A DNA stretch of 56,702 bases, from the sequence record NC_024146.1. One strand, given 5' to 3'. The stretch is from Enterobacteria phage 9g. A model generated the notes under the pieces. It did not search any database, was not told the DNA's origin, and saw nothing but the letters and a program-made list of their open reading frames with translations. The position numbers and the translations under genes are program-made. Below, in pieces: positions 3,007 through 13,888 of the stretch (positions are counted from its first letter, which is position 1; each line of letters begins with the position of its first letter).

Positions 3007-3960
3007 TTATTCGTCAAATAAATCCTGGAGACGTTCGTTGAACTTCCCATTGTGGTTAGCAAGAATCATAGCGTTGACCACACCATACGCCCATAAATTG
3101 TATGCAGCGCGTGATTCGTATATGGTTGAAAGTCGTTCGTATGTGAAACCTGACTCCTCTAAGTAGCGCAGAACATTATTCTGTTCTATTTCTGAAAGAT
3201 TACAGATGTGCTGCCCTTGATAGTGGCGTGACGGTGACTTTTCAGATACCTGCATTGGGCCCCACTTAGGAGTTTCAATAGCACCAAACGCCGCAGATTG
3301 AATCCAGGAGGATGAGTCACAGGAGTACCACGGGTAACGCTCCATAAGCGGGCGGGACGTAATACCAAAACCATGAACTTTAATCTTAGCGCGTCCACTA
3401 CCGTCCACAAGGTGCTTATCCCATACCCTGTCCAACCATACCTGAAGTTGTTGTGTACTCGCTCCAACAAGACCACCGAGCGTGATATACTCATAGTTTC
3501 GCACATAATGGTCCAGGTATTCAAAAGGTTCACCGGCGTGGAAGCATGGTAAAGGTCTTACACCTCTGGCTTCCATCTCTTCCTGGTTGCGCCACGTTTG
3601 AAGTGGATCACCAATACCATCGAGTACAGAAGCCATAAGCGAACCATCTTCCACACGGATGATATCTATGTTTCGTTGGATGTAATCACAGTATTCTTTA
3701 ACCGATAACGTAACTCCCAAAGTGTAAGCTGAGAACGCTCCGGAGTCGAGGAATATCTTGGCCCCATCGGCACGCATGGCATCAACATAGGATTGCTTTC
3801 CAACGTAGTGCCAGGATTCGAGAATGTTTGGAATATTTTCGACAACACGTTTTTCTTGTTCGTTGAGTTTGACATAGCGGTTCATTCCTGGTTTATAGCT
3901 GTTCGTATATACGGCAGCCATATAAATCTGAAAGGTATAGTTGATATCTTGTCTGTGCAT
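3007..3960 (-). CDS. dpdA: DpdA-like DNA-guanine transglycosylase (TGT superfamily) for 7-deazaguanine insertion into DNA
   Basis: 317 aa. TGT-like IFLDSGAFSAY (cf. TDSGGFQ) and overall TGT-like length; sits at the 3' end of the folE-queD-queC-queE operon. ATG at 3960 preceded by GGTGA. Confidence 0.75.
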   Translation of the reverse strand: MHRQDINYTFQIYMAAVYTNSYKPGMNRYVKLNEQEKRVVENIPNILESWHYVGKQSYVDAMRADGAKIFLDSGAFSAYTLGVTLSVKEYCDYIQRNIDIIRVEDGSLMASVLDGIGDPLQTWRNQEEMEARGVRPLPCFHAGEPFEYLDHYVRNYEYITLGGLVGASTQQLQVWLDRVWDKHLVDGSGRAKIKVHGFGITSRPLMERYPWYSCDSSSWIQSAAFGAIETPKWGPMQVSEKSPSRHYQGQHICNLSEIEQNNVLRYLEESGFTYERLSTIYESRAAYNLWAYGVVNAMILANHNGKFNERLQDLFDE

Positions 3961-4029
3961 TGTTCACCTAACAAATAAGCGCCCGTAGGCGCTTATTATA
4001 TTAAAGATAATGTATGATTCGCAAATCAG

Positions 4030-4644
4030 TTACTTTTTACACGCTTCAAGAAATTCCCGACGCCATGTGTCACCAGTCACGTCCGGTAATACACCATCAC
4101 CCAATGCAGTACGTCCGCGGAATGCTTTAGTGATGGTTGAGCTTCCGCATACCTGTTTAACACCGCGCGACTCCATGCACATATGTTTTGCATCGATGTA
4201 GACACACACAGCTTTCGGGTCTAAGTGTTCCACGATAGCATCCGCAATCTGATTAGTCAGACGTTCTTGGACTTGCAAACGTCGAGCGAAAGCATCAACT
4301 ACCCGAGATAACTTGCTGAGACCGACGATTTTTCCATTTGGGACATACCCAACCACTGCATGACCAATAATAGGAGCCATGTGATGCTCACAATGACTAT
4401 ATACAGGGATATCACGGACGATGACCATTTCATCACAGTTTTCCCCACCATCTTCAAATGTCTTGAACAGGGATGCGATATCAACAGAATAACCCCCGAA
4501 CCATGTAGCATAAGCCTTAGCTACACGATCTGGAGTTTCTACTAGACCTTCACGCAAGTCATCGCCACCTTCAATCAACTTTAAAATCTTTTCAATACTG
4601 TGCGAAATTTCTGCTCTGTTTGTCATCTTTGTAAATTCATTCAT
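4030..4644 (-). CDS. folE: GTP cyclohydrolase I (FolE)
   Basis: Clear FolE core: ETPDRVAKAY, VIVRDIPVYSHCEHHMAPI, GLSKLSRVVDAFARRLQVQERLT. The longest ORF begins with TTG at 4680 and overlaps queD; the ATG at 4644 with an upstream AAGGA is preferred (4626 is an alternative). Confidence 0.88.
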   Translation of the reverse strand: MNEFTKMTNRAEISHSIEKILKLIEGGDDLREGLVETPDRVAKAYATWFGGYSVDIASLFKTFEDGGENCDEMVIVRDIPVYSHCEHHMAPIIGHAVVGYVPNGKIVGLSKLSRVVDAFARRLQVQERLTNQIADAIVEHLDPKAVCVYIDAKHMCMESRGVKQVCGSSTITKAFRGRTALGDGVLPDVTGDTWRREFLEACKK

Positions 4645-4670
4645 GGTTTGCAGTTTCCTTGTGTGGTCAA

Positions 4671-5204
4671 TTATTTGCAATAGTTAACATGGCATTTGGA
4701 CGTTTCTTCAATGGTGCATTCTACCAATTCAACACCATATTGGTCAAGTAGTTGAGGACCAATTACGTCAACCATATATGCAGCTAAGTTTTCCGCAGTT
4801 GGGTTGAATGGTAAAGCTACCAAAGAATTAAAGAAAGGATCGTAATCTTCATCCGTCACTAAATTGTTCTCACGTGCAAACTTAGTTGATGCAACAACAA
4901 TGAGCGAATTAATCATGCTGTCTTGTTCCCAATGCAGGAACTTATGATCCCAATTATCTTCCAACCACTGGCAGAGCGTAGTTTTAACCACACTAAAGTC
5001 GATAACCCGACCTACGTCGTCCAGCGAACCTTCTAGAGCAAATCCACTTACAGACTTAACGTAACCTTCCGACAATGTTTTCTTTGGTGCAACTTTAAAA
5101 TGGAACTTATAGTTGTGACCATGAAGATGACGACATTTGCTTTCATGCCCTACAACACGATGCCCAGCGCAAATCTCATGTGAACGAATAACAGTGTAAC
5201 CCAT
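4671..5204 (-). CDS. queD: 6-carboxy-5,6,7,8-tetrahydropterin synthase (QueD / PTPS family)
   Basis: 177 aa. N-terminal CAGHRVVGHESKCRHLHGHNYKF (Cx..HGH zinc/catalytic motif of QueD/PTPS). Confidence 0.85.
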   Translation of the reverse strand: MGYTVIRSHEICAGHRVVGHESKCRHLHGHNYKFHFKVAPKKTLSEGYVKSVSGFALEGSLDDVGRVIDFSVVKTTLCQWLEDNWDHKFLHWEQDSMINSLIVVASTKFARENNLVTDEDYDPFFNSLVALPFNPTAENLAAYMVDVIGPQLLDQYGVELVECTIEETSKCHVNYCK

Positions 5205-5206
5205 TT

Positions 5207-6622
5207 TTATTCCTCGTTTTCGTATTTAATAACTTCTTGTGCGTTATTAATATTAAACGCAGTCCGGCGCATCATGCAAGGGCCGCAAGTACCGCAATGC
5301 AAATTCCCGTTACGGTAACAACTCCAGGTGTGCTCCAACGGGGCCCCTAAACGCAGACCTGTAGCGACAATTTCGTGCTTCATTAAGTTACCTACAGGCA
5401 TGAGCACTTCAACGCGCTTACCATCCCCTACAGCGAACGGTAACACCTGATTAAAGCGATTAATAAACTCAGGTTCGTTGTCCGGATAGGCTCCAGCTTC
5501 TTCTAGGTTGTTACCAAGAACAATATAGTCGAAACCGTTAGCTTCTGCGTATGCAGTAGCAACAGAAAGCATCACAAGGTTACGAGCTGGAACCCATTCA
5601 TGCGCAAACTCAGCGCCTTCTTCACCGCCAGCGATTGCAGCATCTTGATCAAATAATGGGCTATCCTTCTTATCATAAATTGGGATTGGAAATTCAATTA
5701 ATGGAACCCCCATCACTTCCGCAATCTTACGAATAGCATACAGCTCATTAGTTTCTGCACGACAACCATATTGGAAGTTAATCAGAGTAACATCTAAACC
5801 ATTGGACTTACACATTTGAGCTGCTACTGTGCTGTCCATACCACCACTGGCGACAACTAACGCGCGTTGAGTCTGCTTATTTGGAATAAGATCAACTTCA
5901 TTGCATACATCAGTTGATGTAACCACATTACATGAATAAGGCTTCAGCATCTGCTTAATAGCGCGGTTGGGTAGCATGTCTTCCTGGCTGGCGAAATACA
6001 TACCAGTATCAGTCTTACCAATCCAGATTGGACGATAATTACATGCTGTAAACACGCATCCCGGAAAGGAATCATGTGTTGCAAGGATTGCGAAGCTACC
6101 TTTCAATTTGCGAACAACTTCATGAAACACACTGTACAGGTAATTAAAGTCAGACAAACACATTTCATCTGCTGAAAGTGTACATTCTGCTAACTGTTCG
6201 ACAATCGCAGCACTATCAATCTTAGTCTGCAGGGCATAGGTACGAATGTCTTTATCGTTCGCAATAGTACCGTTATGAACAATAGTCCAATCATCCATGT
6301 GATACGGTTGCTGGTCCCACTCATTCTTGTCAACAATCCACTCTGTAGTCGGTTCAGCGCGAGCGTTACCAATCATTGTGAAGCTACCAATAGCTCCAGC
6401 ATGAGATGCAATGCGCCCAACTTTAACAAGACGTTCCAGTGACGTTTCCTTACCGACACTAACGATACGTTGCGGGTGCATACTGTGGTCACCATGCGTA
6501 AAGCGTACACCAAGACCATCACGACCACGCTTGATACTGGCTTTAATAAGATCCTCAATGTCGTTACGGATAATAAGACTTTCAGGTTGACCGTTAGTAA
6601 TAACACCAAAGATAGAGCACAT
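5207..6622 (-). CDS. queC: Gat-QueC fusion: class II (Ntn) glutamine amidotransferase domain fused to a QueC-like 7-cyano-7-deazaguanine synthase domain
   Basis: N-terminus after the start Met is CSIFGV (Cys2 nucleophile, as in AsnB/GlmS-type GATases). C-terminal half has the PP-loop SGGMDS, VPARN, and the zinc motif CGTCGPC of QueC. Start set to the internal ATG at 6620-6622 so that Cys is residue 2; it lies 1 nt after the upstream gene's stop. Confidence 0.85.
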   Translation of the reverse strand: MCSIFGVITNGQPESLIIRNDIEDLIKASIKRGRDGLGVRFTHGDHSMHPQRIVSVGKETSLERLVKVGRIASHAGAIGSFTMIGNARAEPTTEWIVDKNEWDQQPYHMDDWTIVHNGTIANDKDIRTYALQTKIDSAAIVEQLAECTLSADEMCLSDFNYLYSVFHEVVRKLKGSFAILATHDSFPGCVFTACNYRPIWIGKTDTGMYFASQEDMLPNRAIKQMLKPYSCNVVTSTDVCNEVDLIPNKQTQRALVVASGGMDSTVAAQMCKSNGLDVTLINFQYGCRAETNELYAIRKIAEVMGVPLIEFPIPIYDKKDSPLFDQDAAIAGGEEGAEFAHEWVPARNLVMLSVATAYAEANGFDYIVLGNNLEEAGAYPDNEPEFINRFNQVLPFAVGDGKRVEVLMPVGNLMKHEIVATGLRLGAPLEHTWSCYRNGNLHCGTCGPCMMRRTAFNINNAQEVIKYENEE

Positions 6623-6623
6623 A

Positions 6624-7385
6624 TTATTTACCTTCCTTAACCATTTCAATTTCACGCTCAACGGATGCAATAATATCGTTGAGGTCTTCCAGTACGTCTT
6701 TATGACCGCGCTCACCCGCACACAGCACCTTCTTCAGTGCATGTTGCATGGGCCCACTGGTTACATTGAATGCTTTAATTACGTCGTACACGTCAACCCA
6801 TACATCAATTTCGATTGGGCTACCGTTAATGTCATGGGATTCAAAAGTTTTAATTTTGCGCATATATTTATTTGGACGTGGAGCTTTAATCTCCTGGATA
6901 CAACCATTGTCGATAAACGTTTCTTTAATGAATACTTCAGGATTGCCTTCTTTGTCATGATCAACGTTAAAGACATTCGTAAGTAGATCGTCCATGATAC
7001 TTGTTAATTTATGAGTAGACGTTGTGTACTTCATGGTATTCGCTTCCGCTTCCTCTGCTGCTTTCTGACTTCTTCTGGCAGAAGTATTGATACGCCATTT
7101 GTAGAGTGCATTACGTGGAGGTGTTACATGCGTGTTGTAGACCGTCTTTAAGTTCATAAGATCGTGTCCATCCATACCTTCAACAAAGACAGTGAGTGCA
7201 GGACAACTATCGTTCAGAACATCCACCAAATATCCTTCCCGAATTACAGATGCAAGAGCTGCATGTGACGCAGCTTGAGAAACTGTGGTTACATAATGTT
7301 TCACAAATCCGTCTTCATCAAACAGACACTGGTTCAACACATTTTCTGGAACAATTTCACCGAGTAATTGAACGTACTTATTCAT
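6624..7385 (-). CDS. Hypothetical protein embedded in the 7-deazaguanine operon
   Basis: 253 aa, ATG at 7385 with AAGGT upstream; tightly packed between queE and gat-queC. No motif recognised by eye. Confidence 0.6.
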   Translation of the reverse strand: MNKYVQLLGEIVPENVLNQCLFDEDGFVKHYVTTVSQAASHAALASVIREGYLVDVLNDSCPALTVFVEGMDGHDLMNLKTVYNTHVTPPRNALYKWRINTSARRSQKAAEEAEANTMKYTTSTHKLTSIMDDLLTNVFNVDHDKEGNPEVFIKETFIDNGCIQEIKAPRPNKYMRKIKTFESHDINGSPIEIDVWVDVYDVIKAFNVTSGPMQHALKKVLCAGERGHKDVLEDLNDIIASVEREIEMVKEGK

Positions 7386-7447
7386 AATGATTTACCTTAT
7401 CAGTTGAACATACCATGTCTTCCAGCGTGTTTTGAATATGTATAACT

Positions 7448-8212
7448 TCACTCTACGCCTAAATATTTATGAATCTGCAATTGCACGATGTAATTGTGCT
7501 TCATTGCATATTTAACGACAGCTTGAGCGTTTGCTTTATTAGCATCGTCGTCCTGTTCATCCATAGGTTGAAGATAAATTTTACCTTTAAAGTGTACAGG
7601 TGGACGTGCGATAAATGGTGTCGCACGGTGATCCAGTGCCTGCAACGGTAATCCATCTTCCTCGTTGACGTTTCCGCTTTTCATTACATATTTGAAAGCA
7701 TCCGCTCGAGCGGAAACGCTAGGGTGGACCTTTGCTGCCTTAGGACTACATACTACCACACAGTTATAGTTGAGTTCACGCGGGATAGGCATAGTTCCGT
7801 TAGTTTCAACCTGTACACGATAACCTTTCATATCAATGAGGTAATTGATAAAATTAGCAACTTCAGGTTGACGGAAAGGTTCGCCGCCCGTAATGACAAC
7901 TAAGTCAGTCTTGGCTTCACCAGTGACACGGACAATCTCTTGCCAAATGTCACCGTGATTCATCTTCTTACGATTGGACGTATAGTTTGTATCACATCCT
8001 GGGCATTGCAAATTACAACCAGCTAATCGAACAAACACGGCAGGTTGACCACAAAATGGGCCTTCGCCTTGAATGGTATGAAAAATGGAATGCACGTCAA
8101 GAATACCACGTTCACGAACTAACTTCTCAGGTTCCTGAGTATTAATAATTTTCATATGATTTCCAAATTTGGCTTGAGCCCAGTGGTGGGCGATAATGGC
8201 TTGTGCAAACAT
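7448..8212 (-). CDS. queE: 7-carboxy-7-deazaguanine synthase (QueE), radical SAM
   Basis: IFHTIQGEGPFCGQPAVFVRLAGCNLQCPGCDT carries the QueE N-terminal signature and the CxxxCxxC radical-SAM cluster. The longest ORF starts with TTG at 8236; the ATG at 8212 preceded by GAGGT is preferred (8155 is an alternative). Confidence 0.85.
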   Translation of the reverse strand: MFAQAIIAHHWAQAKFGNHMKIINTQEPEKLVRERGILDVHSIFHTIQGEGPFCGQPAVFVRLAGCNLQCPGCDTNYTSNRKKMNHGDIWQEIVRVTGEAKTDLVVITGGEPFRQPEVANFINYLIDMKGYRVQVETNGTMPIPRELNYNCVVVCSPKAAKVHPSVSARADAFKYVMKSGNVNEEDGLPLQALDHRATPFIARPPVHFKGKIYLQPMDEQDDDANKANAQAVVKYAMKHNYIVQLQIHKYLGVE

Positions 8213-8280
8213 TTGAACCTCGGGGTAAGATAACAAAGGGGCAGTAAATGCCCCTTCTGAGTTTCCGAAGTATCTACAGA

Positions 8281-9105
8281 TTACTCTGCAGTTTTCTGAG
8301 ACGGAATTTCTACGTTAGCGGCCGCTTGTGCAATATTAGCAGGTACTGGAACGGATACGCGACCAGTAATGCCCATGTATTTCTTCCAGCGAGCGTATTC
8401 CGCTTTGACGTTCGCTTCGTTCAGGCCTTTGTCCAGTGCAACAGGCAGAACGTAGCTGATCGGCGCAGTCTGACCGAGCTCCAGGGTCACAGCGTCAAAG
8501 ATATCCCATGCAGCACGGCACAGAGTACCGACACCTGGCTTGCGAATACCGTTCTGTTCAGGCTCTTTCTTAGCTTCGCGTTCTGCTGCTTTACGAGCAC
8601 GCTCTTCGTCCTGCAGACGTTTCTTCTCAGCGCGTTGTGCGTCACGTTGCGCTTTTTCAGCGGCCTTAGTGGCTTCGCGGGCAGCGGATACACGACCTTT
8701 AACATCTTTCAGAGTGGATTCAATGGAGGAAACCAGATCTTCAGATGCTGCAACGGCAGTTTTCAGCTGATCGTTGTCTTTAACTTTACGTGCTGCCGCT
8801 TTAACAGCTTTCAGACCTTCTTTAGCGGTCTTCAGTTGAGCGGTAACTACGCCTTCAACTGCTTTAACTTCGTCCAGCAATGAACCTTCGTTCAGGGTCG
8901 CGAACTGTTCTTTAACAGCGGACACAGCACCTTCGATCACATTGTAACCGGCAGTGGCTTCGTTCAATGCGGCGTCAACTTTAGCCTGCAATTCACGTGC
9001 TGCTTTTTCTTCAGCTTCACGTTTTTTCTTTGCTTCAGCTTCTTTTGCTGCTTTCTTTGCTGCTTCTTCTGCTTCCAGTTGTTCTGGAGTTTTCTCTTTA
9101 GCCAT
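8281..9105 (-). CDS. Hypothetical coiled-coil protein (Ala/Glu/Lys-rich)
   Basis: 274 aa, ATG at 9105 with GAGGAT upstream; N-terminal ~190 aa are a low-complexity helical A/E/K repeat. Confidence 0.6.
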   Translation of the reverse strand: MAKEKTPEQLEAEEAAKKAAKEAEAKKKREAEEKAARELQAKVDAALNEATAGYNVIEGAVSAVKEQFATLNEGSLLDEVKAVEGVVTAQLKTAKEGLKAVKAAARKVKDNDQLKTAVAASEDLVSSIESTLKDVKGRVSAAREATKAAEKAQRDAQRAEKKRLQDEERARKAAEREAKKEPEQNGIRKPGVGTLCRAAWDIFDAVTLELGQTAPISYVLPVALDKGLNEANVKAEYARWKKYMGITGRVSVPVPANIAQAAANVEIPSQKTAE

Positions 9106-12961: not shown

Positions 12962-13888
12962 TTACTGTGCAGCGTCATCACCTTCAGTGGAACGTTTCCA
13001 CGGTGGAGTCTTGGTCTGAGCTGCTTTAGCGATATCGTCCTGGACTTCCGGTTCTGCATGGTTAGCAGTACCAGTGTTCTGAGCTTGAGTTTGCGGTTGC
13101 TCTGCTCCAGGCTGTACCTGCTGAGTTGCCCAGTTAGGCTGCTGTGTGGTTTGTTGCTGCTGCGGCTGCTGCGCACCAGTAGCCCACGGTTGAGATTGTG
13201 CCGCGCTGTTAAAATCAACTGTTCCAGACTGCTGCTGTTGCTGTACCGGCTGCTGCGGCTGTTGTTGCTGCTGCGGTTGCTGGAACCCCTGAGCCTGAGG
13301 TTGTTGCTGCTGTTGCTGCGGCTGCTGCCCAAATGCGCCCGGGAAACCCTGCTGCTGCGGTTGCTGCTGTTGTTGCTGAGCACCACCGAACGCACCACCA
13401 CCAAATGCTGGAGATTGTGCTGCCGCTGCCGGAGTTGATTTAGGCAGGTTAGCCATATCCGCCTTAGTTGCGTATACAACACCTTCCATATTATCAATTG
13501 CTTGATAAATCTGAGGTTCGTTGTTTGGCTCATAGCCAGGTTGCTGACGAACTTTCACTTTCAGGTTAAACGGAATACCGTGCAGTTGTTCCGTATCGTT
13601 CCAGACTGGAACTTTAACAGCACGAGACAGCTCTGCCAGTTCTTCCATTGCAATCTGTACAGCGACAGGGTTCGCGTTCTTGACGTTGTAACCGCCAAAC
13701 ATCACACGACCAGCAAAATCACCCTGCATGATCTTAAACTGAAGATTCAGACGCGCACCGCCTGGAGTTTTAGTCGGTTTGATTTCAGAGTTTACAATCT
13801 GAACAACATACCAACCAGCGGGCATCAAGCTGTTGTGTTGACGCTCTGCGTGTTGTCCAGCGTTAAATTGCATTCCTAAACCGGCCAT
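12962..13888 (-). CDS. Putative ssDNA-binding/annealing protein (DUF669-like) with long Gln/Pro-rich linker
   Basis: 308 aa, ATG at 13888 with AAGGGG upstream. Globular N-terminal domain followed by a ~110-aa Q/P/G-rich low-complexity segment; adjacent to a Sak4-like ATPase gene, as is typical for DUF669 proteins. Confidence 0.5.
   Translation of the reverse strand: MAGLGMQFNAGQHAERQHNSLMPAGWYVVQIVNSEIKPTKTPGGARLNLQFKIMQGDFAGRVMFGGYNVKNANPVAVQIAMEELAELSRAVKVPVWNDTEQLHGIPFNLKVKVRQQPGYEPNNEPQIYQAIDNMEGVVYATKADMANLPKSTPAAAAQSPAFGGGAFGGAQQQQQQPQQQGFPGAFGQQPQQQQQQPQAQGFQQPQQQQQPQQPVQQQQQSGTVDFNSAAQSQPWATGAQQPQQQQTTQQPNWATQQVQPGAEQPQTQAQNTGTANHAEPEVQDDIAKAAQTKTPPWKRSTEGDDAAQ
13093..13435. repeat. 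CAG/CTG-rich low-complexity DNA encoding the poly-Gln/Pro linker
   Basis: Runs of ctgctg/ttgctg on the plus strand (e.g. 13200-13400) correspond to QQQQQQPQQQ... in the minus-strand protein. Confidence 0.7.

What the first reader, a model, noticed from the sequence alone, without database searches (positions are those of the whole stretch)
6624..7385. Uncharacterised 253-aa gene inside the deazaguanine operon
This ORF sits between queE and gat-queC, starts with a good SD, and its stop lies 1 nt from the gat-queC ATG. I could not assign it to any known Que/Dpd family from motifs. Its position suggests an unrecognised accessory function in the pathway, for example substrate channelling, a nucleotide-level step, or targeting of DpdA. 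It is the best candidate here for a genuinely undescribed component.
Basis: inference. Interest (0 to 1): 0.7.

Follow-up and report, generated by a model that had tools for sequence, protein, structure and literature searches.

The report
Orphan two-domain gene in deazaguanine operon
The ORF is a real, conserved phage gene inside the DNA-modification operon, but it looks like a lineage-restricted accessory protein built on a very common, unannotated phage module, not a missing step of the deazaguanine pathway.

Summary
A 253-aa ORF lies on the minus strand (6624..7385) between queE and gat-queC, with its own SD, its stop 1 nt from the gat-queC ATG, and purifying selection (dN/dS 0.12-0.23). 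The window is a 9g-like Nonagvirus and the ORF corresponds to 9g gene 32, which has never been discussed. The protein has three parts: an orphan N-domain (1-100), a nearly neutral linker (101-170), and a tightly conserved C-terminal module (171-253; AF2 pLDDT 91.5; beta-hairpin plus three helices). The module defines a huge unannotated phage family (at least 3,993 clusters; 754 GenBank phage records), and most carriers lack DpdA. Its helical core superposes on DUF3310/SaV/T7 gp1.7-type models, but sequence-profile tests of that link failed. The pathway-component idea is weakened on three counts. Published work shows 9g dpdA plus gat-queC alone make dG+ in E. coli. Only 12 of 80 syntenic DpdA clusters carry a module gene. 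None of 80 generic module loci has que/dpdA genes nearby. In its favour, the gene is always inside the que cluster when present, and the N-domain was found only there. Most likely it is a non-essential accessory, possibly nucleotide-handling like gp1.7. Interest is moderate to low.

The parts
6624..7385 (-). ORF253 coding sequence (253 aa plus TAA stop); corresponds to phage 9g gene 32
   Evidence: orthologues; dN/dS 0.12-0.23; 9g gene numbering inferred from PMC4276943
7086..7385 (-). N-terminal orphan domain (residues 1-100). Invariant H30, S40, Y83, N84, W97 across divergent variants
   Evidence: alignments A1 and A7. No relatives outside its own cluster among 1.84 billion representatives. 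No PDB or Pfam hit. dN/dS 0.02-0.15. The HMM hits only cluster-embedded genes.
6876..7085 (-). Variable, indel-rich linker (residues 101-170)
   Evidence: A1 shows indels; AF2 pLDDT below 50; dN/dS 0.28-0.90; at most 10% identity to L001/L002 homologues
6627..6875 (-). C-terminal conserved module (residues 171-253): beta-hairpin 175-198, then helices 199-205, 211-221 and about 231-251. Motif NKYxRxI...VDVYDVIxAF...QHAxKKxLxAGxRGHKD...DLxDII
   Evidence: AF2 pLDDT 91.5; family of at least 3,993 clusters; phrog_2452/23361/13223/35158/17613; dN/dS 0.02-0.06
6696..6716 (-). Invariant Gly-rich basic loop G224-E-R226-G227-H228-K229-D230 between helices 2 and 3. Candidate ligand- or phosphate-binding site (inference)
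   Evidence: invariant columns in A1, A2, A3 and A5; position from the model's secondary structure
7394..7399 (-). SD-like TAAGGT, 8 nt upstream of the ORF253 ATG
   Evidence: sequence
6631..6638 (-). SD (AAGGAAGG) for gat-queC, embedded in the last codons of ORF253. Stop and start are separated by 1 nt, so translational coupling is plausible.
   Evidence: sequence
8235..8257 (-). Terminator-like hairpin upstream of queE. No comparable site lies between here and dpdA, so queE-ORF253-gatQueC-queD-folE-dpdA is probably one transcription unit.
   Evidence: consensus scan only
3007..8236 (-). Deazaguanine (dG+) cluster context: queE 7448-8236 (mechanical ORF), ORF253, gat-queC 5207-6622, queD 4671-5204, folE 4030-4680, dpdA 3007-3960

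Best explanation
SHOWN: ORF253 (9g gene 32) is a genuine gene under purifying selection, probably co-transcribed with the dG+ operon. It encodes an acidic (pI 5.4) protein with two domains. An orphan N-terminal domain is tethered by a nearly neutral linker to an 80-aa C-terminal module (beta-hairpin plus three helices). In my sampling the N-domain was seen only inside the deazaguanine clusters of this phage group (window, Nonagvirus and Nonagvirus-like contigs, and two distant contigs of unknown host). The module belongs to a very large, unannotated family of mostly stand-alone 67-143-aa phage proteins encoded in early or DNA-metabolism regions. ORF253 is not a core step of dG+ synthesis. INFERRED (most likely mechanism): the module is a structural relative of DUF3310, the C-terminal domain of the T7 gp1.7 dGMP/dTMP kinase. 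Its invariant Y...DVY...H..KK...G.RGHKD residues would form a nucleotide- or phosphate-binding site. ORF253 would then be a non-essential nucleotide-handling accessory. It could boost or buffer the guanine-nucleotide supply, for example GMP/dGMP to GDP/dGDP phosphotransfer that recycles the guanine released by DpdA back to GTP for FolE and to dGTP for replication. The fast-diverging N-domain would supply specificity or tethering. Confidence is about 0.85 for the anatomy and the 'accessory, not core' verdict, and about 0.3 for the nucleotide-handling mechanism. The figure given is for the whole statement.
For: Real gene with domain-wise constraint. Not required for the chemistry: Hutinet 2019. 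Lineage-restricted: module gene in 12 of 80 syntenic DpdA clusters, with relaxed thresholds adding none. Module family size and independence from DpdA. Confident fold. Fold similarity: after direct family members, every hit in the remote tier that carries a functional or family name (12 hits) is DUF3310, SaV-like or 'nucleotide/thymidylate kinase'; these superpose at 1.1-2.1 A over 51-57 columns for the nine with short core alignments, probability 0.99-1.00, E 0.02-0.14. T7 gp1.7 carries DUF3310 at its C-terminus behind a variable N-terminal region, the same layout. PHROG bridges: phrog_25460 is hit by both gp1.7 (1e-3) and the ORF253 module (1e-2) in the same profile region, and phrog_23238 shares its N-terminus with a module-bearing Acinetobacter protein (2e-9) and its C-terminus with gp1.7 DUF3310 (1.6e-6). 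gp1.7 is a dGMP/dTMP kinase (PMC12846349, PMC11897194, PMC10700055). Neighbours of stand-alone module genes are DNA- and nucleotide-metabolism genes, including methylases, helicases, RusA, ThyX, dUTPase and SSB. Acidic to neutral charge argues against a plain DNA binder. When present, the gene is always inside the que cluster (12 of 12 loci, two different slots).
Against: No sequence-level support for the DUF3310 link. Pfam PF11753 is not hit by ORF253 or by any of 108 family members, even at E<=10. hhalign against gp1.7 profiles gives E 0.3, and the score (9.5) equals a column-shuffled null (mean 9.85; 157 of 300 shuffles reach it). The Foldseek E-values to DUF3310 are marginal, and a 55-residue three-helix core is a common shape. 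No solved structure matches. It is not established that DUF3310 itself is the catalytic part of gp1.7. Most family members are about 70 aa, which is small for a kinase. Other DUF3310 proteins (SaV) are toxic host-takeover factors, not kinases. E. coli already has Gmk, and reconstitution works without ORF253. The N-domain diverges far faster (24-30% identity) than the flanking enzymes (55-92%), a pattern more typical of partner-specific or arms-race proteins than of metabolic enzymes.
Confidence: 0.35

Rival explanations
1. Host-takeover or defence-interacting early protein (SaV-like). The conserved module binds a conserved host hub protein or acts as an oligomerisation or effector unit. The fast-evolving N-domain tracks a variable host or defence partner. 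Its place in the que operon only reflects co-expression with early/middle genes or a permissive insertion site.
For: DUF3310 proteins include SaV (early, toxic, triggers AbiV; PMC8306868), cytotoxic mycobacteriophage proteins (PMC10700055) and gp1.7 as an Avs5 activator (PMC11897194). The N-domain and linker diverge far faster than neighbouring enzymes. N-domains are swapped between lineages, with Seuratvirus carrying a different one. Stand-alone members sit among small early genes (Rtp, Acinetobacter phage). The cluster tolerates other insertions.
Against: Within Nonagvirus the N-domain is under purifying selection, not diversifying (dN/dS 0.02-0.15). The module is nearly invariant across phages of very different hosts (Salmonella, Acinetobacter, Vibrio, Pseudomonas, Halomonas), which fits a universal small ligand at least as well as a host protein. 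Twelve of 12 occurrences lie inside the que cluster, which is unexpected for a random moron. There is no PADLOC hit, and no anti-defence library was available.
Confidence: 0.25
2. One reading: a pathway-specific accessory of deazaguanine modification. It might tether or channel between QueE and Gat-QueC, raise or target DpdA activity, or protect preQ0 or G+ from host enzymes. The N-domain would recognise a pathway protein or a 7-deazaguanine ligand.
For: The gene is always inside the cluster when present, in two different slots and with both Gat-QueC (dG+) and plain QueC (dPreQ0) clusters. The N-domain HMM hits only cluster-embedded genes. The stop/start junction with gat-queC suggests stoichiometric co-expression. 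Six of twelve CAjan cluster genes remain unknown and untested (PMC7544227). It is still unknown whether Gat-QueC acts before or after insertion (PMC6884629).
Against: It is dispensable for dG+ formation at 9-18% of Gs in E. coli. It is absent from 68 of 80 otherwise syntenic clusters. The conserved half is a generic phage module unrelated to DpdA distribution. Seuratvirus uses a different N-domain on the same module, which is hard to reconcile with a specific pathway contact made by the N-domain. The restriction of the N-domain to clusters may simply reflect vertical inheritance within one phage lineage.
Confidence: 0.15
3. Small nucleic-acid-binding or regulatory protein. The three-helix module would act like an HTH and regulate the operon or bind phage DNA.
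For: The core is a three-helix bundle with conserved K/R/H residues. A few family members give weak HTH-type Pfam hits (HTH_PafC in 6 members, best E 0.025). The best Foldseek PDB hit is a 'putative nucleic acid binding protein', 2od5 (E 0.21).
Against: All these hits are non-significant. ORF253 is acidic in every region (net charge about -10) and the module family has a median pI of 6.9. The invariant residues cluster in a Gly-rich loop, not in a recognition helix.
Confidence: 0.08

Closest known systems
T7 gp1.7 nucleotide (dGMP/dTMP) kinase; Pfam DUF3310 (PF11753)
   Same: Phage-only protein. A conserved module of about 60 aa sits at the C-terminus behind a variable N-terminal region and linker. 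The three-helix core superposes on DUF3310 models at 1.1-2.1 A. Motifs line up by eye: HY/KY, IEAIEVI/VDVYDVI, K..L.AG.(K/R), DL. Both are encoded among DNA-metabolism genes. Weak shared PHROG hits exist.
   Different: There is no significant Pfam, HMMER or hhalign match. ORF253's module has an extra N-terminal beta-hairpin and its own invariant signature (DVYDV, QH..KK, G.RGHKD). gp1.7's Cys-rich N-terminal region is absent. Kinase activity is untested.
SaV (lactococcal phage early protein, AbiV sensitivity; DUF3310 / 'SaV-like')
   Same: Small early phage protein family of the same putative fold. Function is unknown or host-directed.
   Different: There is no sequence similarity. ORF253 is larger, has two domains, and is embedded in a metabolic operon. 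Toxicity and defence triggering are untested.
Stand-alone module proteins: Rtp gp5 (86 aa), Jerseyvirus Ent1 gp21 (76 aa), phiEB49 gp69; phrog_2452 and relatives
   Same: Clear homologues of ORF253 residues about 170-253 (E 1e-12 to 1e-38; 41-62% identity). All are annotated hypothetical.
   Different: They lack the N-domain and linker. They are encoded in phages without deazaguanine genes.
Seuratvirus cluster gene (SeppeHuegi bas24_0042, 196 aa; one of the six 'unknown' CAjan cluster genes)
   Same: Same C-terminal module (44-48% identity), also inside the deazaguanine cluster. Never deleted or characterised.
   Different: It has a different N-terminal domain (WHQHDGKGMP... type), a different slot (yhhQ/queC -> X -> queD), and belongs to a dPreQ0 rather than a dG+ cluster.

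Membership tests
Pfam DUF3310 (PF11753) / gp1.7-type nucleotide kinase | Significant match to the PF11753 profile | tested here: not met
   There is no hit for ORF253, for its C-terminal fragment (E<=10), or for any of 108 family members. T7 gp1.7 as positive control hits at 4.5e-23.
Pfam DUF3310 (PF11753) / gp1.7-type nucleotide kinase | Profile-profile similarity to gp1.7 DUF3310 | tested here: not met
   hhalign gives E 0.055-0.3 and probability at most 1%. The score of 9.5 compares with a column-shuffle null of 9.85 +/- 2.1, and 157 of 300 shuffles reach it. Both profiles are shallow (Neff about 2.4), so this is a weak test.
Pfam DUF3310 (PF11753) / gp1.7-type nucleotide kinase | Shared fold of the helical core | tested here: met
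   Foldseek against BFVD: DUF3310, SaV-like and 'nucleotide kinase' proteins score probability 0.99-1.00, E 0.02-0.14, with 1.1-2.1 A over 51-57 columns for the core alignments. No other named family appears in that tier. The E-values are marginal.
Pfam DUF3310 (PF11753) / gp1.7-type nucleotide kinase | Transitive sequence links through intermediate families | tested here: inconclusive
   phrog_25460 is hit by gp1.7 (1e-3) and by the module (1e-2). phrog_23238 links a module-bearing protein's N-terminus with a DUF3310 C-terminus.
Pfam DUF3310 (PF11753) / gp1.7-type nucleotide kinase | dGMP/dTMP kinase activity | not testable with these tools
   Requires a biochemical assay.
Unannotated phage module family (phrog_18443/2452/23361/13223/35158/17613) | Significant full-length match of residues about 170-253 with the invariant Y, DVY, H, KK, L, G, RG and D columns | tested here: met
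   phrog_18443 1.5e-176 and phrog_2452 7.8e-28. A profile search finds 3,993 clusters. Invariant columns are listed.
Known Que/Dpd pathway proteins (FolE, QueD, QueE, QueC/Gat-QueC, QueF, ArcS, YhhQ, DpdA, and others) | Sequence similarity to any of them | tested here: not met
   There are no Pfam or NCBIfam hits, while all neighbours hit their families. No PDB hit.
Core component of phage deazaguanine DNA modification | Required for the modification | tested here: not met
   Literature: 9g dpdA plus gat-queC suffice in E. coli, giving 9-18% of Gs as dG+ (PMC6884629). No phage knockout of this gene exists.
Core component of phage deazaguanine DNA modification | Conserved co-occurrence with dpdA/que genes | tested here: not met
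   A module gene is present in 12 of 80 syntenic DpdA clusters. The module is in 754 phage records against 231 with DpdA, with different host distributions. None of 80 generic module loci has que/dpdA genes. The N-domain, however, was found only in clusters.
Anti-phage defence proteins (PADLOC) | Match to any defence-system model | tested here: not met
   0 families at E<=1.

The most novel reading that the evidence does not exclude
The ORF253 family is a dedicated adaptor of phage deazaguanine metabolism. Its cluster-restricted N-domain would recognise a 7-deazaguanine or guanine ligand, or a pathway enzyme, and bring in a DUF3310-like nucleotide- or phosphate-handling module. That could close a salvage loop (guanine released by DpdA -> GTP -> preQ0) or set the fraction of Gs modified. 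Such a role would explain why the gene sits inside que clusters in three lineages and two slots.
Probability: 0.12. Interest if true: 0.65.

Novelty: new variant of a known kind. Interest (0 to 1): 0.33.

Why it matters
For the deazaguanine field the main value is negative. This conspicuous unknown gene in the 9g operon is unlikely to be a missing enzymatic step, so searches for what sets the ~25% modification level, or the order of Gat-QueC and DpdA action, should not assume it is. The positive value is broader. Its C-terminal 80 aa define one of the larger unannotated phage protein families: at least 3,993 clusters at 90% identity and 754 of about 50,700 GenBank phage records, with no Pfam model and occasional mislabels such as 'terminase' or 'ATPase'. 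The family now has a confident predicted fold and a tentative structural link to DUF3310, the domain of the T7 gp1.7 kinase and of the AbiV and Avs5 triggers. A single biochemical study of the module (nucleotide binding or kinase activity, toxicity, defence triggering) would annotate thousands of phage genes.

Tried and rejected
- Direct annotation: Pfam, NCBIfam, PDB sequence and PADLOC searches gave nothing for the full protein or for either half.
- Exhaustive phmmer of the N-terminal 165 aa against 1.84 billion representatives found only its own cluster plus one marginal hit, P0064 (E 1.4e-4, a 1165-aa protein, 61-residue stretch), judged spurious.
- The full-length AF2 model was too poor (pLDDT 58.8) for fold search, so the N-domain fold stays unknown.
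- The afdb50 library was unavailable.
- The DUF3310 homology recalled from memory was tested by hhalign against gp1.7 alone, by hhalign against a 72-sequence gp1.7 profile, by a column-shuffle null, and by a Pfam scan of all 108 members. All were negative. Only fold similarity and weak PHROG bridges remain.
- Primary gp1.7 papers (PMC3436134, PMC2453740, PMC4135679) are not held.
- A conserved genomic partner for stand-alone module genes was sought with a Pfam census of 95 neighbours. None emerged.
- A second module copy, or a gp1.7-type DUF3310, elsewhere in the window was sought and not found.
- A role tied to the Gat domain was rejected because the same two-domain family occurs with plain QueC (L167/L168).
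- Antisense ORFs inside the gene (6702-6986, 6748-6960, 7196-7387 on the + strand) were judged spurious given frame-specific purifying selection on the minus strand.

Full report
OBSERVATION. The ORF exists as described, on the minus strand: 6624..7385, ATG start, 253 aa. Reading the sequence gives the following layout. The queE stop is TGA at 7450-7448, followed by a 62-nt spacer. An SD-like TAAGGT at 7399-7394 lies 8 nt before the ATG at 7385-7383. The stop TAA is at 6626-6624, then one base, then the gat-queC ATG at 6622-6620. The gat-queC SD (AAGGAAGG, 6638-6631) lies inside the last codons of ORF253. Pfam and PHROG confirm the neighbours as QueE, Gat-QueC, QueD, FolE and DpdA. A terminator-like hairpin lies just upstream of queE (8257-8235), and none lies between queE and dpdA (consensus scan only). 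That is consistent with a single transcription unit.

SOURCE. The region is 90-96% identical to Nonagvirus phages such as JenK1, HdK1, JenP1/2 and SE1. The window length (56,702) matches the published 9g genome (56,703 bp). The 9g paper lists 'genes 31-35' with only four named functions, plus gene 36 as the transglycosylase, so ORF253 is 9g gene 32 and was never discussed. This identification is an inference.

IT IS A REAL GENE. Full-length orthologues occur in 16 GenBank phages and in about 45 metagenomic clusters at 78-92% identity. A second tier at 34-39% identity also exists. Against five Nonagvirus orthologues, dN/dS is 0.12-0.23 overall. By region it is 0.02-0.15 for residues 1-100, 0.28-0.90 for residues 101-170, and 0.02-0.06 for residues 171-253. 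QueE gives 0.01-0.07 and DpdA 0-0.11 in the same comparison. So two constrained domains are joined by a nearly neutral linker.

ANATOMY. ORF253 has no hit in Pfam, NCBIfam, PDB sequences or PADLOC. PHROGs place it full-length in phrog_18443 (unknown function). Its last 60-90 residues also match five other PHROGs.

The N-terminal domain (1-100) is an orphan. phmmer against 1.84 billion representatives finds only its own cluster. A profile of eleven divergent variants hits nothing significant in the PDB or Pfam. Invariant residues are H30, S40, Y83, N84 and W97.

The C-terminal module is different. A profile of 14 seed sequences retrieves 3,993 clusters at 90% identity. The 120 best hits listed are stand-alone proteins of 67-143 aa, none has a Pfam annotation, and every source name given is 'hypothetical'. 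tblastn finds the module in 754 GenBank phage records. With a 108-sequence alignment, AlphaFold2 gives a confident model (pLDDT 91.5): a beta-hairpin followed by three helices. The invariant residues include Y(KY), DVY, H, KK, L, G, RG and D, and a nearly invariant Gly-rich basic loop G-x-R-G-H-K-D sits between helices 2 and 3. The full-length model was poor (pLDDT 58.8).

IS IT A PATHWAY COMPONENT? Four lines of evidence say no, or not a core one.

1. Hutinet et al. 2019 reconstituted dG+ in E. coli plasmids at 9-18% of Gs with only 9g dpdA and gat-queC.
2. I fetched 80 IMG/VR loci encoding DpdA relatives (57-100% identity) and scanned all ORFs. The block helicase...QueE-QueC-QueD-FolE-DpdA-clamp-polymerase is conserved throughout. 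A module-bearing gene lies within 10 kb in only 12 loci. Relaxed thresholds add none.
3. The module's distribution is unrelated to DpdA's. Module records are dominated by Salmonella (367), Escherichia (192) and Acinetobacter (46). DpdA records number 231, dominated by Mycobacterium (56), Escherichia (41) and Pseudomonas (32), with only 3 from Salmonella.
4. Of 80 diverse loci carrying generic module genes, none has a DpdA, QueC, QueD, QueE or FolE homologue within 4 kb. A Pfam census of 95 dereplicated neighbours shows no conserved partner, only generic DNA-metabolism genes: DNA methylases (5), helicases (3), RusA (2), and single hits to ThyX, dUTPase, SSB, an exonuclease and HNH. Some packaging, structural and lysis genes also appear.

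WHAT STILL LINKS IT TO THE CLUSTER. When present in this phage clade, the gene is always between queE and dpdA (12 of 12 loci), but in two different slots. Nonagvirus and the divergent L001/L002 contigs have queE->X->gat-queC. Seuratvirus and two distant contigs (L167/L168, DpdA 57% identical, plain QueC) have queC->X->queD. L167/L168 carry the same N-domain as ORF253, whereas Seuratvirus carries a different N-domain on the same module. An N-domain HMM hits only these cluster-embedded genes and nothing in the 80 generic module loci. This may reflect function, or simply vertical inheritance and local rearrangement within one phage lineage. The sampling cannot separate these.

Between the window and L001/L002, the N-domain is 24-30% identical and the linker at most 10%. 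The C-module is 66-73% identical, the Que enzymes 55-72%, and DpdA, clamp and polymerase 73-92%. So the N-domain exists as deeply diverged alleles. Kot et al. 2020 state that six of the twelve CAjan cluster genes have unknown function, and they deleted only folE, queC, dpdA and yhhQ. The gene is therefore acknowledged as unknown and has not been tested.

CLOSEST KNOWN FAMILY. I recalled from memory a resemblance to DUF3310 and tested it.

Structure supports the link. In a Foldseek search of BFVD, direct family members come first. Beyond them, every hit that carries a functional or family name is 'DUF3310 domain-containing', 'SaV-like', or 'nucleotide/thymidylate kinase'. The core alignments superpose at 1.1-2.1 A over 51-57 columns, with probability 0.99-1.00 but E-values of only 0.02-0.14. 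T7 gp1.7 carries Pfam DUF3310 at residues 122-184 of 196 (E 4.5e-23). That is the same layout of variable N-terminus plus C-terminal module. Two PHROG bridges exist. phrog_25460 is hit in the same profile region by gp1.7 (1e-3) and by the ORF253 module (1e-2). phrog_23238 combines the N-terminus of a module-bearing Acinetobacter protein (2e-9) with a DUF3310 C-terminus (1.6e-6).

I therefore describe the module as DUF3310-like in fold and do not file it as a member of PF11753.

WHAT DUF3310 PROTEINS DO (from papers).
- gp1.7 phosphorylates dGMP and dTMP (PMC12846349, PMC11897194, PMC10700055).
- SaV is an early, toxic lactococcal phage protein that triggers AbiV (PMC8306868).
- gp1.7 activates the Avs5 defence protein.
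- DUF3310 proteins are cytotoxic in mycobacteria.

Whether DUF3310 is itself the catalytic unit of gp1.7 is not established in the sources I could read. The primary gp1.7 papers were not held.

MECHANISM. Shown: a two-domain, acidic protein (pI 5.4, net charge about -10) that is non-essential for the chemistry, lineage-restricted, and built on a generic phage module.

Inferred, with about 0.3 confidence: the module's invariant Tyr, His, Lys and Arg residues and its Gly-rich loop bind a nucleotide or phosphate, as proposed for gp1.7. ORF253 would support guanine-nucleotide supply for a pathway that consumes GTP (FolE) and releases guanine (DpdA). The N-domain would provide specificity.

Rivals:
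- A SaV-like host-takeover or defence-interacting protein (0.25). It is favoured by the fast-diverging, swappable N-domain.
It is favoured by the strict in-cluster location and the cluster-restricted N-domain.
- A nucleic-acid-binding regulator (0.08). It is disfavoured by the charge.

VERDICT. The gene is best called a new variant of a known kind: a divergent DUF3310-like module fused to an orphan domain. It is not a newly recognised step of deazaguanine DNA modification. Interest is moderate to low for the pathway. It is somewhat higher for the unannotated module family, which is very large and experimentally tractable.

Noticed in passing
window 1-56702: The window length (56,702) matches the published genome of phage 9g (56,703 bp). 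However, 9g itself is not among the matches in the phage collection. The best hits are JenK1 and HdK1 at about 96%.
   Followed up: partly
window 8235-8257 (-) and queE ORF 7448-8236: The mechanical queE ORF starts at a TTG inside a terminator-like hairpin, and the PHROG QueE match begins only at residue 40. The true queE start is probably a downstream ATG (around 8152, 'MKIINTQ...').
   Followed up: no
window 3007-8236 vs L001, L002: The cluster is mosaic. The Que enzymes (55-72% identity) are more diverged between the window and L001/L002 than the flanking DpdA, clamp and polymerase (73-92%). This suggests recombination or replacement within the operon.
   Followed up: partly
L001:3769-4647; L002:10094-10522; BASEL Nonagvirus records: The deazaguanine cluster tolerates insertions. 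L001 has three small ORFs between gat-queC and queD, and L002 has a DUF7448 gene. ChristophMerian and FritzHoffmann have 7-8 hypothetical genes in the same region.
   Followed up: no
GenBank hits H39, H54, H55; phrog_17613; BFVD A0A5Q2F242: Small module-bearing proteins are labelled 'terminase ATPase subunit', 'terminase large subunit' or 'ATPase' in some records and in one PHROG. These are probably propagated mis-annotations.
   Followed up: no
BFVD A0A5J6T4Q0 (Aeromonas phage vB_AhyS-A18P4, 'DNA ligase', 468 aa); A0A6M3YTD0 (Alteromonas phage R7M, 'Phosphodiesterase', 204 aa): The module appears inside larger proteins annotated as DNA ligase and phosphodiesterase. R7M is itself a DpdA-encoding phage, yet no module was found within 10 kb of its dpdA (L148). 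These may be informative fusions.
   Followed up: no
L169-L248 (neighbours of stand-alone module genes): DNA methyltransferases (N6_N4_Mtase x4, MT-A70 x1) are the most frequent Pfam family next to stand-alone module genes (5 of 95 neighbours). This is a weak hint of an association with DNA-modification modules in general.
   Followed up: partly
L003:5722-6312 (Seuratvirus SeppeHuegi bas24_0042); L099-L101: Seuratvirus carries the same C-terminal module on a different N-terminal domain ('IWHQHDGKGMPIFLRN...W.W...DIIAWRY'), between yhhQ/queC and queD. This is one of the six unknown CAjan cluster genes and has never been deleted.
   Followed up: partly
window 8281-9105 (-) and 12962-13888 (-): Two neighbouring genes lack a Pfam match or look compositionally unusual. 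One is a 274-aa protein with a highly charged Lys/Glu/Ala-rich N-terminal half. The other is a 308-aa protein with long Gln-rich tracts, whose positional counterpart in L002 carries DUF669.
   Followed up: no
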